This document shows, in pieces, positions 51,701 to 60,700 of a stretch of DNA of 64,000 nucleotides. The stretch is from positions 128,517 to 192,516 of the forward strand of contig JAISOW010000002.1 of NCBI GenBank assembly GCA_031275345.1. Direction: 5' to 3'. Numbering within the stretch: position 1 is the stretch's first letter; the number at the start of each line of letters is the position of its first letter. The DNA is from Puniceicoccales bacterium (GTDB lineage Bacteria; Verrucomicrobiota; Verrucomicrobiia; Opitutales; JAIRLM01). Made by a program: the position numbers.

Positions 51701-54700
51701 AAATTGCCCACATTCCCACCACCATCGTTGAGGTATCCGACGAGTCCACGGCGGCCAAGGCCCTACACCTTTTGGAAAAGCTAGAAGAGTTGGAGGATGT
51801 TACCAATGTGTACAGCAATATGTAGGGGTATGGCCTGGCGTTCATTGTCCGCACCGGCGATTCTATTGCTGGGCTGTTGCGTTCCCTCCATGCTGGCTGG
51901 CCTATCCCTGCTAAATTCCGATGGCCAGCCACGGGATGAGCTATTGGCGGTGGGTCGGCTGCTTGGATTGGAATGGGGAACCACGGCGTCATCGATCAAT
52001 GCCCATGCCCAGCGGCATCTGCTCAGACCGGCCTCCCTGGAGCGGCATCGGATGGCAGACTCACCCTATGAGGGCCTGTGGGACGATCTGCAGCCACTTC
52101 TAGCAAAGCTTGGCATGCTGCAGCCGGTTGATCCGCCGCCTGGACACTATGACTACCTGATTTTACTGGGCCAGAGCATTCCCATGATGCGGAGCCAGGC
52201 CGAATTCATTCGCCGCTATTTGGATAGCGGAGTAGTTTCCCATGGCCAGCTGGCATTTCTTTGCGGCCGTCGACCCATCGATCCGACCATCGATGGACCT
52301 GACCCGCTGACCGCCATTGTCGCCGACGAGGCTGCTGCAGCCCAGCTGCTGCTCGCAAAATATTTTTCCCAAAACGGGCAGGCCATGCTCGTCGCCGTAC
52401 CCATGCATCCAAATGGCAGCCGGCCAAATACCAGGGATACGGTGCGCGCGTGGTTAGCACAGCAGCGGCCACGGCCAGGGTCCGTGCTGCTGGTTTCCAC
52501 AAATCCATTCATTCCATACCAGCTGGAGACGGTACGAGGAGAACTTGCCATGGCCTGGCCCGCGGGGACCTATGCCGTTGCTGCCTGTGGAGACGGTGTC
52601 CACCGCCTCGCCAATCGTAGCAATCGGGTTGCCATCCTTCTGGATTGCCTGGCTCGACAGTTGTACACGGAGTTGACCTACCGCGGTGAGCTGGAGTGAT
52701 TGGCAATGGCGCGTTCCGTGGCGATCTATAGCCCCCTGGGGGAGCTGCAATTTTCGCAAAAGGCTGTGGCTTTGTTCATTGCCGCAATCGATGCCATGGG
52801 CCGCTATTCCATCCCATCCGGTGAACTTTCCATCGCCCTGCTGGACGATGGAACAATGGCTGCCATGCACGGAAAATTTTTATCCGACCCGACGCCAACC
52901 GACGTGATCACATTTCCCGGCAATCCGGCAGAACGGTTCGCGGGAGAAATTTGCATCGCCGTTGGCTACGCTGCCAGGTCTGCAAAGGAGCACGGAGTGC
53001 CACTCGGGGACGAAATTGCTCTCTACCTGGTCCACGGCTGGCTGCACCTGGCAGGGTTGGACGATGCGACGGAAGAGGGTGCGGCATTGATGCGCTCCGC
53101 GGAAAAAGAACTTTTGGACCATGCCAGGATGCGCGACCTGATCCCAAACTTTCGATTATAAACCGATTGGTAGCAGGTTCGAGCTCTGCCAGGGTAGGCG
53201 GAAGGTTGAATCCAACGCGAAATTCAGGCAAAGATTAAGAACCATCCCCGCTTACGCGGGGGAAACGTTGTACCATTCGTCCGGCGGAGGAGGGGGACAG
53301 AACCATCCCCGCTTACGCGGGGGAAACTGCCAGATTCGCGGGACGGATGGAAGTTTTGAAGAACCATCCCCGCTTACGCGGGGGAAACAAATATCCGTCG
53401 CCTGTTTTGCCATCCATGGCCGAACCATCCCCGCTTACGCGGGGGAAACTCCCAGCAGAGGACACTGCACCGGGAACGAGTTGAACCATCCCCGCTTACG
53501 CGGGGGAAACCCGATCGAAGTAAAATCCCTCCTTTTCAAGGACGAACCATCCCCGCTTACGCGGGGGAAACGTCTGGCCTTGTCGAGAATTTTTCCCACC
53601 AGTCGAACCATCCCCGCTTACGCGGGGGAAACAAGTTCGAATGGCAACATCCTATATATAGGCTCGAACCATCCCCGCTTACGCGGGGGAAACTCGGTCA
53701 GTGTAAACCGTTCCCCTCTGGCTGCCGAACCATCCCCGCTTACGCGGGGGAAACCCCTTCCGCGGCTGGCATTCGCTGCGCAAAATCGAACCATCCCCGC
53801 TTACGCGGGGGAAACAAAGCTGCAGCCGGGAAATTTTCTAAAAAAATCGAACCATCCCCGCTTACGCGGGGGAAACGTCCGCGCGCTCATCGTCAGCGTG
53901 GCGGCAGGAGAACCATCCCCGCTTACGCGGGGGAAACACAGGAAGGCCGCTGGTGGGAGATGGGAATCCCGAACCATCCCCGCTTACGCGGGGGAAATAG
54001 TGCTCCCTGGCGATGCTCCGGGTGACTGGATGGACAAAAACGGCGTGTAATTAGAACGGAATACGACTCTCATCCACAAATTTCTCTGCCATCAACTGCA
54101 ATCCGCAAACACGCCTTGGCGCCCTGCTTGGCCTACCAAAAAAATCGATGGCGAAACCCTGGCAAGAAGAATCTTCAAAGAAGACAATGGCAATGCCAAT
54201 CGCTGGAATAGTTGCGCACATATTCCAGAATTTTTTTGCGAACCTTCGCGTTCACAGAGCCCACAAAAACGTTGGCTTTTGGTTCTAAAAACCAGCGCTT
54301 GAGTACGCCGCGGACACAATCCGGCGTGTGTTCCGCAACGATTACCATCATAAATTTCTTTCAAAGAGCTGAAAAATCGTTTTGGGGATGCGGGTGAATA
54401 GCTTTTCTTTTTCAATAAGTTCCTTTAACCGTTCCAGCACACTTTCTTCCAGTGCATTGGGATTTGGTTTCTCTTTCACCACCGCAAATGCCGCCGTAAA
54501 GCTCGTTTCTGCCTTAAAAATATCGGCAATGTCGAAGGTGAAGGAAAGCATGTGGGAGGTGTGGATAAATCCCAGCTGGGGCAAGAAGCCAAGGGATACG
54601 ATAAGACTCGTAACCATGGAGTAAAGAGCGGCGTTGGCAGCTGAAATGGCACGGTTGATGTCATCGGCCAGATGCCAGCAATTCACGTCATAGGACCTAG

Positions 54701-57700: not shown

Positions 57701-60700
57701 AAACCCCTGCCAAAGCAGGCGATGCCAATCGTCGCAGCTGCGGACGGTGCGGTGCACGTCCCGCGCAGGCAATTCAATCTTCAACAATTTCATCTTTTTT
57801 TTCCGATTGCGACCTTTCGTTGCCAACGTAGAAAGATTCTGCCCAACGGCGACGGATTTGGAACCGTTCATCCGCATCGTCCCATTTTTTCAAGTCCCAA
57901 TAGAGTCCGTCAAAATTGATCGCCACACCGTATTCTAGAATCTTTGCCAACCAAAAGCTGCGCAATTGCATCTGCAAAGCTTCCCGGCCATCGCAGGCCA
58001 GCAGGGTGCAAAATCGACCATCGAGCACATCCCGCACCTCCTTCTTCAGTTTGCCAAAGCCTGAAGCAAAGACCCATCTCAATTTTTGATTTCCAGATTG
58101 TCCCCCATCTGTCGCATGTTTTTTTTGCAAAATTTTATAAAAACTGTGGGCATTCGGTGCTTCTGCCATCAGGGCCAGGACAAAAAATGCCGGATCGTTT
58201 GGGAAAAAGGCAGGGCCGTAGCGCACCACGGCATAGGCCGCATGTTCCCGTTCCTGGATGAGTCCCTGGCGTAGCTTCCAGGCCAGTGCCCGGCCAACAT
58301 TTGCCACACCCAGCATGGAATGGAGCCGTTCCAATTCTGCGGCAAAGCCAAACTGCCGATTTTCTGCATCATTTTCCATCGCCGTTGCCCACGTTGAATG
58401 TTTCAAAAATTTGGCGACGACCCCTCACGTAGACCGCCCATTGGGCAGAATTTTGGGGCGCACACTCATCGTCGAATATGGCCAATGCCACCTGTTGCAG
58501 CTCCCGTTCCCACCGCTCCAGCGGTCCCTGTCCTTTCCCGCCATTTTCGGTACCTTGTTTCTGAGCCATCTCCTGCCGAAGTAATTCGTGCATCAATCCC
58601 TGCCGAACATCCAATGTCGCCCAATAGGCGGAGGAAAGTTTGGCGCCTTTTTTGCACTCTGCACCGGCCCGGCCCAATTTTTTTGCCATTTCTTCGGCCT
58701 TGGCCACGAAGCGTTCCCTGTGCTCCGCCTGTCCACGGAGTGCGGCATTTCCAATCGGCCAATGGTCTTCTACGGCGATTTCCACAGCCCCGCCCATTCT
58801 TCCATGGTAGGCCACGCCTCCGCACCAAATGATGTAATCGGATGTTGGAGATTCCAGGAAGGGACGCAGAATGGGCGCGCAGACTATGGACCACCCATCG
58901 CGATCTCTTCTGTAATCGGCCAGTGCAACCACATGCGCATCCCGCCAAAGGGATTTTTTGGGATTTATTTTCAAAATTTTCTCAACCGTCTCATTCTTTC
59001 CGCCCTTCTTCTGGACGATGATTGTCGTCGTCAAACCGCGCATGGCCGGCGCATTTTGATCTCCTTTCTCGTCCTCGCAGAGAAACTTTCTTTCCAGGCC
59101 AGTTGCCACGGAGACCTGCCATGGTCCATTTCCGACGGGTTGGCGCAAAAGCACCGCCCGACTCCAGGGAACGAGACGGCCCAAAAATGTTTTTGCCGCA
59201 TTTTTTGCATTTTTTTCAAAAAAATTCTTTTCCGGATACCCTTCCCACACGGGGCGGCCAAGGAAATCGTTGCAAATTTTAGGAAGTTTTCCAAGGGGTA
59301 CAAAATTTGCCAGCAAAGTTTTTTCCAAAGATTTTTTCAAAATGAAGAGATGGACGTTATTTTTGCACTGTCCACTCTTGCCGCCCGCATTTGGAAGCTC
59401 CTCTTCCTGCCACGTGCCAGTTCCAGCCGTTCCGCTGCCATGAAAATTTTGAAATGTGAGAAGGTAAAGTGCCAACTCACGCGCCGCAATGTCAGTTTGC
59501 CATTCGTCATTCCCATTGCTTCTTCCATCGTTGCCGCGAATGACCAAATTGTTGCCCGATGTTTTGGAGAAGGCAAGTGTCGTCCATGGCTTGTTCTCCC
59601 CTTCCAGGCCCGCATATTGCAAAAATGGATATTGGCCGTGGCAAAGATAGAAGCGATCCCGCCATTTTGCAAGATAGGCCACACATCTTTCCAGCATGGG
59701 ACTATCCGCCCCGTCGCCGACCCCATTGGCAGCGTAGATGATGCAAAGAAATAGGCGCATCAAAGCAATCCGTTCCATCGGCCCAACGGAAAGGTCGACG
59801 ATATCTTTGCGCACAAAAACTTCTTCCAGAGATAGATAAATGAAATTTCCTTCGCCGTCGGATACGGGAATCCAGGGCTCTGCAACCAAATTAAAAAATT
59901 GATGGCATGCCATCGCCATTCCTCTCCATTTTTTTGAAACCATCGCAATTTGAGCTTTTTTCTTCCACCGGGGAGCGGTATTTTTGTTCTTTCAGAAGAA
60001 AATTTTGACCCTTGATCGGTGGGATGCTGGTCGAAAGCCGATGTGTTTCCCAAAAGTTTTCACGATCGTCGGCAACTTCTGAGAACTGCCGCAGGAAAAT
60101 GATGGTCTTCGACGGAGAGGTGGGACGCTCTAGCGAAGCCATAGCCAATTTGATTGTAGTGCGGCCGCAGAAATCGACAAGGCATTTTCGCAGCATGGCG
60201 GCAAAAAATGGCAGAAATTTTTTTTGATTGTCTCCCTAGGATACGAATTGGTTTCAGGCTTTTCCAGCGGTTGCTTGCCGTTTTTTCAAAAATCACTTTC
60301 CATTGTCCATGGCGGATGCGGTGTTTCGGGAAGATCTTTTCATAGAAGATGTGGGAAGGTTGCACCTAACCTTTGACGAAAGCTGGGTTTATTCCCAGAT
60401 TCAGGATGGCGAGGTGCGGGAACGTTTGGGAGAAATTTTAGCCTATGATGCCATTTTTTCCCCCGTGCTGGATGAAATTTGTTCCAACATCGTTGGCCGG
60501 ACGCTATTTCGTCTACTTTCCACAAAGGCATCCATTGCCGGCAAGGAGCAAAAAATACGGCTGGTCAACCGTGCCATCAATGGCAGCTACTATTCTCGCA
60601 AAGATTTTGCCATCCTAACAAATCGCAACCTATTCGATGACAATGGCCTAAGCCGCGACGGTTCCCAGTATTATTGCCTGGACAATGCCGGAGGGATTGG

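What the first reader, a model, noticed from the sequence alone, without database searches (positions are those of the whole stretch)
53238..60302. Type I-E CRISPR-Cas locus with no cas3 and a rearranged Cascade operon
The locus is bounded on both sides:
- The operon runs cse1-cse2-cas6e-cas7-cas5-cas1-cas2-array, with overlapping stops and starts throughout.
- Upstream of cse1 there are only 360 bp before a divergent metalloprotease gene.
- Downstream of the array is ybeY.
- So the Cas3 helicase-nuclease, essential for I-E interference, is not part of the locus.

cas6e sits before cas7 rather than after cas5 as in E. coli or T. thermophilus. I believe such variants exist in other lineages. 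Cascade appears intact, and Cas1 keeps its catalytic Glu, His and Asp.

A cas3-less Cascade with 12 spacers could act as a programmable repressor, could depend on a cas3 encoded elsewhere, or could be a decaying system.
Basis: partly seen in the sequence, partly recalled or inferred. Interest (0 to 1): 0.6.

Follow-up and report, generated by a model that had tools for sequence, protein, structure and literature searches.

The report
Split type I-E CRISPR, broken cas2

Summary
The locus is real, on the minus strand: cse1-cse2-cas6e-cas7-cas5-cas1-cas2, a 52-nt leader, then 13 repeats and 12 spacers. It lies between ybeY and a divergent HExxH gene.

- **cas3 is not missing.** An intact 867-aa Cas3e (HD nuclease plus helicase) lies alone on another contig (C10). 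In trees it falls in exactly the same 24-locus clade as the local Cas7, so it is the cognate gene.
- **The operon is not rearranged.** The order cas6e-cas7-cas5 held in 75 of 75 related loci. It is the published "variant" I-E order of Vibrio cholerae classical strains.
- **cas2 is frameshifted.** It splits into two halves in different frames. A second assembly of a public run shows the same frameshift. Spacer acquisition is probably disabled.

New observations:
- None of 40 relatives has Cas7e or Cas3e, so the system was acquired horizontally.
- A prophage of at least 28 kb is integrated at tRNA-Phe, 2.3 kb from cse1.
- The newest spacer matches that prophage at 31 of 33 positions, and one mismatch is at the PAM -1 base. 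A second spacer matches at 27 of 33.

Verdict: a new member of a known kind, with modest interest. Other notes of this scan on this window had already flagged the cas2 frameshift and the integrase.

The parts
53239..53998 (-). CRISPR array: 13 copies of the 28-nt repeat GTTTCCCCCGCGTAAGCGGGGATGGTTC and 12 units of 33 nt. The first base of each unit is G in 8, T in 3 and A in 1, so it looks PAM-derived. The leader-proximal repeat alone starts with A instead of G.
53999..54050 (-). Short (52-nt) leader between the cas2 stop and the first repeat. No sigma-70-like site was found in it.
54051..54351 (-). cas2 pseudogene. The N-half is in frame with the ATG at 54351 and stops at 54175. The C-half is in the +1 frame and ends at 54051. 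One extra base lies somewhere in about 54196-54212, not in a homopolymer.
   Evidence: identical in a second assembly
54348..55199 (-). cas1 (type I-E Cas1e), 283 aa, intact
55196..56011 (-). cas5e, 271 aa (ATG at 56005 possible), intact, with insertions relative to the profile
55998..57131 (-). cas7e (Cse4/CasC), 377 aa from the ATG at 57131
57128..57793 (-). cas6e (Cse3/CasE), 221 aa from the ATG at 57793. A His is present where E. coli CasE has its catalytic His20 (my own by-eye comparison with the E. coli sequence, recalled from memory); C-terminal GCGLL motif present.
57774..58406 (-). cse2 (Cas11e); likely start at the ATG at 58379 (201 aa in the second assembly's gene call)
58369..59943 (-). 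cse1 (Cas8e), 524 aa (516 aa if it starts at the ATG at 59919)
59944..60302 (-). Intergenic region upstream of cse1. It holds one sigma-70-like site (60180 to 60153, 9 of 12 matches). No cas3 remnant was detected.
53938..53970 (-). Spacer S01 (newest). It matches the resident prophage at own-genome C2:218198-218230 at 31 of 33 positions. The mismatches are at the PAM-derived first base (G in the array, A in the prophage) and at position 27.
53389..53421 (-). Spacer S10. It matches the prophage at C2:217166-217198 at 27 of 33 positions, with AAG at target positions -3 to -1.
62191..62266 (+). tRNA-Phe, the attachment site of the neighbouring prophage
   Evidence: the contigs of the second assembly break here
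62800..64000 (+). Tyrosine integrase (it runs past the window end). It is the first gene of a podovirus-like prophage of at least 28 kb that carries the S01 and S10 protospacers.

Best explanation
[quoted passage not shown] It sits in a 0.94-Mb Puniceicoccales genome.

Proposed history and mechanism:
- In this heavily rearranged genome the cognate cas3 was separated from the operon. It now sits alone on another contig.
- Cas3 is a trans-acting enzyme that Cascade recruits to the R-loop, so the split need not stop interference. Cascade would be made from the local operon, Cas6e would cut the array transcript into crRNAs, and the unlinked Cas3 would degrade matching DNA.
- Adaptation is probably off. 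cas2 is frameshifted, and the leader-proximal repeat carries a private mutation that has not been copied into a newer repeat.
- The array was last used against relatives of the prophage now integrated 2.3 kb away. The resident copy differs from the newest spacer at the PAM -1 base, which probably lets it coexist with an intact Cascade and Cas3.

Shown: gene content, integrity, the unlinked cas3 and its congruent phylogeny, the cas2 frameshift, and the spacer-prophage matches. Inferred: expression, interference activity, loss of adaptation, and the PAM effect.
For: **Gene identities and integrity**
- All six Cascade and Cas1 ORFs hit type I-E models above their cut-offs.
- The own proteins keep most columns that are invariant across relatives: 63 of 67 in Cas3, 11 of 13 in Cse1, 23 of 25 in Cas7, 28 of 28 in Cas1.

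**The unlinked cas3**
- Its frame is open, and it has HD, Walker A, DEVH and motif VI.
- Every cas gene is single-copy, and the assembly holds only one array.
- The contig belongs to the same organism. Its MetRS is 64-66% identical to Puniceicoccales MAGs, and its GspE/GspF match the same-genus genome.
- Cas3 and Cas7 fall in the identical 24-row clade (SH-aLRT 99 and 97), with the same nearest loci and similar very long branches of 2.86 and 2.96.
- In related loci, cas3 sits directly upstream of cse1 in 54 of 56.

**Acquisition and rearrangement**
- None of 40 relatives has Cas7e or Cas3e.
- Synteny with the same-genus genome breaks every 2-3 genes.

**cas2 and the assemblies**
- cas2 is frameshifted.
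- The frameshift and both loci are 100% identical in a second assembly of run SRR14710916.

**Spacers and prophage**
- S01 matches at 31 of 33 and S10 at 27 of 33, both inside the prophage. Leaving aside the array's own 12 self-matches, the best match elsewhere in the genome is 25 of 33, for the low-complexity spacer S03.
- Prophage genes identified: integrase, terminase, portal, capsid, tail, internal virion protein and tail fibres.
Against: - There are no expression or crRNA data.
- All Cas proteins are on very long branches, and each of Cas3, Cse1 and Cas7 has lost 2-4 otherwise invariant residues, for example SAT to SGT in helicase motif III. Partial loss of function cannot be excluded.
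- The leader is only 52 nt and has no recognisable promoter.
- The PAM of this system is unknown. AAG is inferred from one diverged protospacer and from G at the PAM-derived base in 8 of 12 units, so the resident CAA site might still be recognised.
- The second assembly probably uses the same reads, so it does not exclude a systematic read error at cas2.
- An anti-CRISPR in the prophage would explain the coexistence equally well.
Confidence: 0.6

Rival explanations
1. The whole system is a non-functional relic on its way to loss in a shrinking symbiont genome. On this reading the cas2 frameshift is only the first visible lesion, cas3 and Cascade are no longer expressed or active, and that inactivity is why a near-perfect self-targeting spacer is tolerated.
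For: - cas2 is frameshifted.
- The leader-proximal repeat is mutated and the leader is very short.
- The Cas proteins sit on long branches and have lost several otherwise invariant residues.
- cas3 is separated from its operon.
- The newest spacer is self-targeting.
- There is a precedent for decay of CRISPR-Cas in termite-protist endosymbionts (PMC5174739).
Against: - Seven of eight cas genes have open frames of full length.
- About 85-100% of the columns invariant in relatives are retained in four proteins despite about 2.9 substitutions per site. This argues for purifying selection over most of the residence time.
- The C-half of cas2 is still open and conserved, so the lesion is recent.
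- The resident protospacer differs at the PAM -1 base, which is what escape from an active system looks like.
Confidence: 0.25
2. Cascade works without Cas3 as a programmable DNA-binding repressor. For example, it could silence the tail-region gene of the resident prophage that S01 matches.
For: - cas3 is not in the operon.
- S01 matches a prophage gene with a non-canonical flank.
- Imperfect-PAM targets can be bound without cleavage in E. coli I-E (PMC4678831, Figure 6 legend).
Against: - An intact, cognate, single-copy cas3 is present and conserved.
- Only one spacer is a near-perfect self-match, and it lies inside a coding region, not at a promoter.
- No other spacer matches the chromosome above background.
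Confidence: 0.05
3. The system is fully intact. On this reading the cas2 frameshift is a read or consensus error, or it is bypassed, for example by ribosomal frameshifting or by the two halves working together.
For: - Both halves of cas2 are still open and conserved.
- The genome is an uncultured-organism assembly, and reads could not be inspected.
Against: - The extra base is not in a homopolymer.
- Two assemblers give the identical sequence over 8,371 bp.
- The gene call in the second assembly is also 58 aa.
- The private mutation in the first repeat fits a lack of recent acquisition.
Confidence: 0.07

Closest known systems
Vibrio cholerae O1 classical biotype (O395, Man9) type I-E CRISPR-Cas, the 'variant arrangement'
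   Same: Same gene order, cse1-cse2-cas6e-cas7-cas5-cas1-cas2 followed by the array, and a 28-bp repeat (PMC9893581). In this study 75 of 75 related loci share this order.
   Different: In V. cholerae, and in 54 of 56 related loci, cas3 is the first gene of the cluster. Here it is on another contig. Here cas2 is also frameshifted. Sequence identity to any known homologue is low (Cas7 no more than 45%).
Escherichia coli K-12 and Thermus thermophilus type I-E (Cascade plus trans-acting Cas3)
   Same: Same protein families (Cse1, Cse2, Cas7e, Cas5e, Cas6e, Cas1e, Cas2e, Cas3 with fused HD and helicase). The repeat has the same hairpin layout. The base before the spacer appears PAM-derived, and AAG flanks one protospacer.
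   Different: cas6e precedes cas7. The repeat is 28 nt with a 33-nt unit, rather than 29 plus 32. cas3 is unlinked.
Decay and retention of CRISPR-Cas in 'Ca. Endomicrobium trichonymphae', endosymbionts of termite-gut protists (Izawa et al. 2016, PMC5174739)
   Same: A genome of about 1 Mb keeps CRISPR-Cas while individual loci or genes become pseudogenes.
   Different: A different phylum and different CRISPR loci. Whether this genome is an endosymbiont of a termite-gut protist rests on earlier unverified notes of this scan. Here a single system is split in two loci, with a self-matching spacer to a neighbouring prophage.
Self-targeting spacers against resident prophages, tolerated through PAM or target mutation, cas mutation or anti-CRISPRs (review: Wimmer and Beisel 2020, PMC6990116)
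   Same: The newest spacer matches an integrated prophage. The target differs at the PAM -1 base, and one cas gene is mutated.
   Different: The mutated gene is cas2 (adaptation), not an interference gene. No anti-CRISPR was identified or tested.

Membership tests
Type I-E CRISPR-Cas | Cas8e (Cse1) large subunit and Cse2 (Cas11e) small subunit | tested here: met
   TIGR02547 scores 92.8 bits (cut-off 70) and TIGR02548 scores 30.2 bits (cut-off 28.5). PF09481 and PF09485 also hit, as do the PADLOC Cas8e and Cas11e models.
Type I-E CRISPR-Cas | Cas7e, Cas5e and Cas6e backbone and processing subunits | tested here: met
   TIGR01869 scores 223.9 bits, TIGR01868 scores 92.8 bits and TIGR01907 scores 59.4 bits, all above their cut-offs. 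The PADLOC Cas7e, Cas5e and Cas6e models also hit.
Type I-E CRISPR-Cas | Cas3 with fused HD nuclease and SF2 helicase, of the Cas3e type | tested here: met
   Present in the genome but unlinked (G000:C10:46950-49553, minus strand). PADLOC Cas3e gives E = 1.2e-150, and TIGR01587 and TIGR01596 are above their cut-offs. Its phylogeny is congruent with Cas7.
Type I-E CRISPR-Cas | Intact Cas1e-Cas2e adaptation pair | tested here: not met
   Cas1e is intact (295.6 bits). Cas2e is split by a frameshift: its 58-aa N-half matches profile positions 1-51, the rest lies in another frame, and there is no second cas2. This pair defines completeness, not the subtype.
Type I-E CRISPR-Cas | 28-29-nt repeat with an internal G+C hairpin, and spacers of 32-33 nt | tested here: met
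   There are 13 repeats at a 61-nt period, with the hairpin CCCCGCG-TAAG/-CGGGG.
Type I-E CRISPR-Cas | AAG-type PAM 5' of the protospacer; crRNA-guided, Cas3-dependent DNA interference | tested here: inconclusive
   AAG flanks the diverged S10 target, and the PAM-derived base is G in 8 of 12 units. Interference activity cannot be tested with these tools.
Variant-order I-E branch (V. cholerae classical type) | cas6e lies between cse2 and cas7; 28-bp repeat | tested here: met
   The window shows this order. It is the same in 75 of 75 related loci, and it is described in PMC9893581.
Cas3-less Cascade (transposon-associated or type IV-like DNA binder) | No cas3 anywhere in the genome, and loss of nuclease recruitment | tested here: not met
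   An intact cognate cas3 was found in the same genome. No transposition genes lie next to the locus.

The most novel reading that the evidence does not exclude
The cas2 frameshift was selected for, not merely tolerated. The idea runs as follows:
- A phage escaped the newest spacer through a PAM change and then lysogenised 2.3 kb from the cas operon.
- After that, primed adaptation from the imperfect self-target would have loaded lethal prophage-targeting spacers.
- Killing cas2 would have frozen the array. That would leave an interference-only, fixed-memory I-E system, with an unlinked cas3, that still gives immunity against related phages.
Probability: 0.12. Interest if true: 0.5.

Novelty: new member of a known kind. 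Interest (0 to 1): 0.3.

Why it matters
- **For annotation.** 'No cas3 next to Cascade' must be checked genome-wide before a cas3-less or repressor role is proposed. cas6e-before-cas7 is a normal I-E layout.
- **For symbiont biology.** A 0.94-Mb bacterium, described in earlier unverified notes of this scan as a host-associated termite-gut symbiont, still keeps a costly eight-gene defence system that it acquired by transfer. It carries a record (two spacers) of conflict with the very phage family that is now integrated beside the locus. This adds to the evidence from Endomicrobium that reduced-genome symbionts linked to the termite gut remain exposed to phages.
- **As a natural example.** The combination of a broken cas2, a privately mutated first repeat and a PAM-changed self-target shows how adaptation can be lost while interference is kept.

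Tried and rejected
- **Read-level check of the cas2 frameshift and of prophage excision.** As a substitute I used a second (Logan) assembly of run SRR14710916.
- **Same repeat in other assemblies.** The exact repeat gave no hit in metagenome contigs, so a comparison of spacers between strains was not possible.
- **Source phage of the spacers.** There was no exact hit for the S01 core in viral contigs or metagenome contigs. Six other spacer cores gave none in viral contigs. The GenBank phage collection gave only chance-level hits, E = 0.2. Homologues of the protospacer gene in five related genomes do not match any spacer.
- **Reconstructing the event that separated cas3.** This failed. In five relatives ybeY, the HExxH gene and gspE are all on different contigs. 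Micro-synteny with the same-genus genome lasts only 2-3 genes.
- **cas3 remnant upstream of cse1, or a second cas1, cas2 or cas3.** None was found.
- **Second CRISPR array.** None was found.
- **attR copy of tRNA-Phe at the end of contig C2.** Not found. The contig ends inside a tail-fibre gene.
- **Status of a CAA PAM in E. coli.** I looked for it in PMC4678831, but the main text does not state it.
- **Contamination as the source of cas3.** Rejected, because contig C10 carries Puniceicoccales housekeeping genes.

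
Full report
**1. What is in the window**

The feature lies on the minus strand. ORF listing and profile searches identify six genes:
- cse1 (58369-59943)
- cse2 (57774-58406)
- cas6e (57128-57793)
- cas7 (55998-57131)
- cas5 (55196-56011)
- cas1 (54348-55199)

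Each scores above the curated cut-off of the type I-E NCBIfam model. The matching Pfam and PADLOC models also hit. Stops and starts overlap at every junction.

Downstream there is a 52-nt leader and then 13 copies of GTTTCCCCCGCGTAAGCGGGGATGGTTC at a 61-nt period, giving 12 spacer units of 33 nt (53239-53998). The first base of each unit is G in 8, T in 3 and A in 1. That is what is expected if this base is copied from the PAM, as in E. coli I-E (established knowledge). Only the leader-proximal repeat starts with A instead of G.

ybeY (52700-53161, plus strand) lies 77 bp beyond the array. Upstream of cse1 there are 359 bp, then a divergent 259-aa gene whose only recognisable feature is HEFCH. 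It has no family hit but is conserved in five relatives.

**2. cas2 is broken**

The finding lists cas2 as part of an intact operon. It is not intact.
- From the ATG at 54351, which overlaps the cas1 stop, the frame gives 58 residues. These match Cas2e profile positions 1-51 and then stop at 54175.
- The remainder of Cas2 (…AIGIAIVFFEDSSCQGF…GLQLMAEKF…PF) continues in the +1 frame to 54051 and aligns with Cas2 of related loci.
- A relative's Cas2 aligns to the DNA in two pieces in different frames.
- One extra base somewhere in about 54196-54212 accounts for this. The context has no homopolymer.
- There is no second cas2 in the genome.

However, a separate Logan assembly of run SRR14710916 contains an 8,371-bp contig that is 100% identical to the window. 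It includes the frameshift, the variant first repeat and spacers S01 and S02, and its gene caller also gave a 58-aa Cas2.

**3. cas3 is present elsewhere and is the cognate gene**

The window lies on contig C2 of a 942-kb, 11-contig genome that is 94% complete.
- *The gene.* A genome-wide search with the Cas3 helicase and HD models finds one open 867-aa frame on contig C10 (46950-49553, minus strand). It hits PADLOC Cas3e at E = 1.2e-150. It has the HD motifs (LHDIGK, GAHHGR), Walker A (GQGKT), DEVH and motif VI (QRMGRCRRH).
- *Its setting.* It stands alone between a glycosyltransferase plus a 370-aa orphan ORF on one side and gspE/gspF on the other.
- *Same organism.* The contig's MetRS is 64-66% identical to Puniceicoccales MAG proteins, and its GspE/GspF match the same-genus genome. 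The arrangement is 100% identical over 21.5 kb in the second assembly.
- *Phylogeny.* I collected 80 related I-E loci from reference genomes plus three from metagenome assemblies. For the 55 loci that carry both genes, I built maximum-likelihood trees of Cas7 and of Cas3. The own Cas7 and the own Cas3 fall in exactly the same 24-row clade, which is Verrucomicrobiota-dominated with some Acidobacteriota and others (SH-aLRT 97 and 99). They have the same nearest loci and nearly equal, very long terminal branches of 2.96 and 2.86 substitutions per site. Their joint sister is an Akkermansia MAG locus, but that join is between long branches and should not be trusted.

**4. The gene order is not a rearrangement**

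In 75 of 75 related loci where all three genes were detected, the order is cas6e, cas7, cas5. In 54 of 56 loci with at least 6.2 kb of upstream sequence, cas3 lies directly upstream of cse1. These loci were chosen by similarity to the own Cas7, so the statement applies to this branch of I-E.

The same arrangement (cas3-cse1-cse2-cas6e-cas7-cas5-cas1-cas2, 28-bp repeat) is described in print as a variant I-E arrangement in V. cholerae classical strains O395 and Man9 (PMC9893581). What is unusual here is only that cas3 is unlinked.

**5. Origin**

None of 40 relatives (one of the same genus, twelve more of the same family, the rest of the same order) has a Cas7e or a Cas3e match. The nearest Cas7 homologues anywhere are at most 45% identical. 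The system was therefore acquired horizontally, and both parts have since evolved fast.

The G+C content of the operon is 51%, against 55% for the genome.

The event that separated cas3 cannot be reconstructed, because gene order in this lineage is scrambled. In the same-genus genome ybeY is followed by nusB, which here lies on contig C8, and shared blocks are only 2-3 genes long.

**6. Integrity of the interference genes**

Among alignment columns that are invariant across relatives, the own proteins retain:
- Cas3: 63 of 67
- Cse1: 11 of 13
- Cas7: 23 of 25
- Cas1: 28 of 28

With about 2.9 substitutions per site, such retention argues for purifying selection during most of the residence time. 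The few losses (for example SAT to SGT in Cas3 motif III) leave some doubt about full activity.

**7. Spacers and the neighbouring prophage**

A tRNA-Phe gene lies at window 62191-62266 and is followed by a tyrosine integrase (62800 to beyond the window end). Next come a VRR-NUC gene, large terminase, portal, capsid, tail proteins, a 1,240-aa internal virion protein and tail fibres, up to the end of contig C2. This is a podovirus-like prophage of at least 28 kb that starts 2.3 kb from cse1. In the second assembly the contigs break inside tRNA-Phe.

- *S01.* The newest spacer matches C2:218198-218230, inside a 134-aa ORF among the tail-fibre genes, at 31 of 33 positions. The mismatches are the PAM-derived first base (G in the array, A in the prophage, so the resident flank reads CAA) and position 27.
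- *S10.* This spacer matches 1 kb away at 27 of 33 positions, with AAG at target positions -3 to -1.
- *Background.* In an exhaustive ungapped scan of the genome, leaving aside the array's own 12 self-matches, the best match elsewhere was 25 of 33, for the low-complexity spacer S03.
- *Other collections.* No spacer matched public phage, viral-contig or metagenome collections.
- *Relatives.* Homologues of the protospacer gene occur in 5 of 13 same-family genomes, so this phage type is common in the lineage, but none of them matches a spacer.

**8. Interpretation**

The simplest reading is a type I-E system whose interference arm is complete but encoded at two loci. Cas3 acts in trans in all studied I-E systems (established knowledge), so linkage is not required.

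The adaptation arm is probably dead. cas2 is frameshifted, and the private G-to-A change in the first repeat has not been propagated, as it would have been if a spacer had been added after the change arose.

The array records past encounters with the phage family now resident next door. The resident copy differs at the PAM -1 base. A PAM change is a known route by which a self-target is tolerated (PMC6990116).

Rival readings are a fully decaying system, a Cas3-independent repressor, and an intact system with an erroneous frameshift. They are scored in the Rival explanations section. An anti-CRISPR in the prophage was not tested and would also explain the coexistence.

**9. Verdict**

This is a new member of a known kind. 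The 'no cas3' and 'rearranged operon' points do not hold. The added facts (unlinked cognate cas3, broken cas2, prophage-matching newest spacer) make a tidy but unsurprising case.

Other notes of this scan on the same window had already recorded the cas2 frameshift, the array details and the integrase at tRNA-Phe. I reached the frameshift, the array structure and the integrase independently before reading them. The termite-gut and host-associated setting of this genome comes only from such earlier notes and was not checked here; only the placement in Puniceicoccales was partly tested.

Noticed in passing
window 62191-64000, continuing to own-genome C2:218902 (L096, L097): A podovirus-like prophage of at least 28 kb is integrated at tRNA-Phe. 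It encodes a tyrosine integrase, VRR-NUC nuclease, large terminase, portal, capsid, a 1,240-aa internal virion protein and several tail-fibre genes. The gene call in a second assembly also shows a YoeB-type toxin gene just after the integrase. The contig ends inside a tail-fibre gene, so the far end was not found.
   Followed up: partly
window 60303-61082 (+): A 259-aa protein whose only recognisable feature is HEFCH. It has no Pfam or NCBIfam hit but is conserved at 44-79% identity in all five related small genomes tested. It is a lineage-specific putative zinc hydrolase, and it is not part of the transferred cas island.
   Followed up: partly
own genome C10:45572-46684 (L005:7573-8685, +): A 370-aa ORF lies convergent with the unlinked cas3. 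It has no family hit and no homologue in five relatives. It may have arrived together with cas3.
   Followed up: partly
window 53971-53998 and 53999-54050: The leader-proximal repeat alone has A instead of G at its first base. The leader is only 52 nt and has no sigma-70-like site, so the array may be transcribed by read-through from the cas operon.
   Followed up: partly
window 61118-62341 (-) and 53268-54050 (+): Two ORFs in the mechanical list are misleading. The N-terminal roughly 90 codons of the thioredoxin-reductase ORF are the antisense of tRNA-Phe. The 260-aa ORF across the CRISPR array is an artefact of the repeats.
   Followed up: yes
L098 (same-genus genome G001:C76), own genome C8:3773-4165: Gene order in this lineage is scrambled even within the genus. 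ybeY is followed by nusB in the relative, but by the CRISPR array here, and the own nusB is on another contig.
   Followed up: partly
L050 and L078 (related I-E loci): Two of 56 related loci show no detectable cas3 or cse1 within 10 kb upstream of cas7, even when relatives' proteins are used as queries. These are possible further cases of split or reduced I-E systems.
   Followed up: no
L108-L114 (genomes G001, G002, G005, G009, G011, G019): Homologues of the 134-aa prophage gene that carries the S01 protospacer occur in 5 of 13 same-family genomes and in one genome of the same order. Related prophages are therefore widespread in these small genomes.
   Followed up: partly
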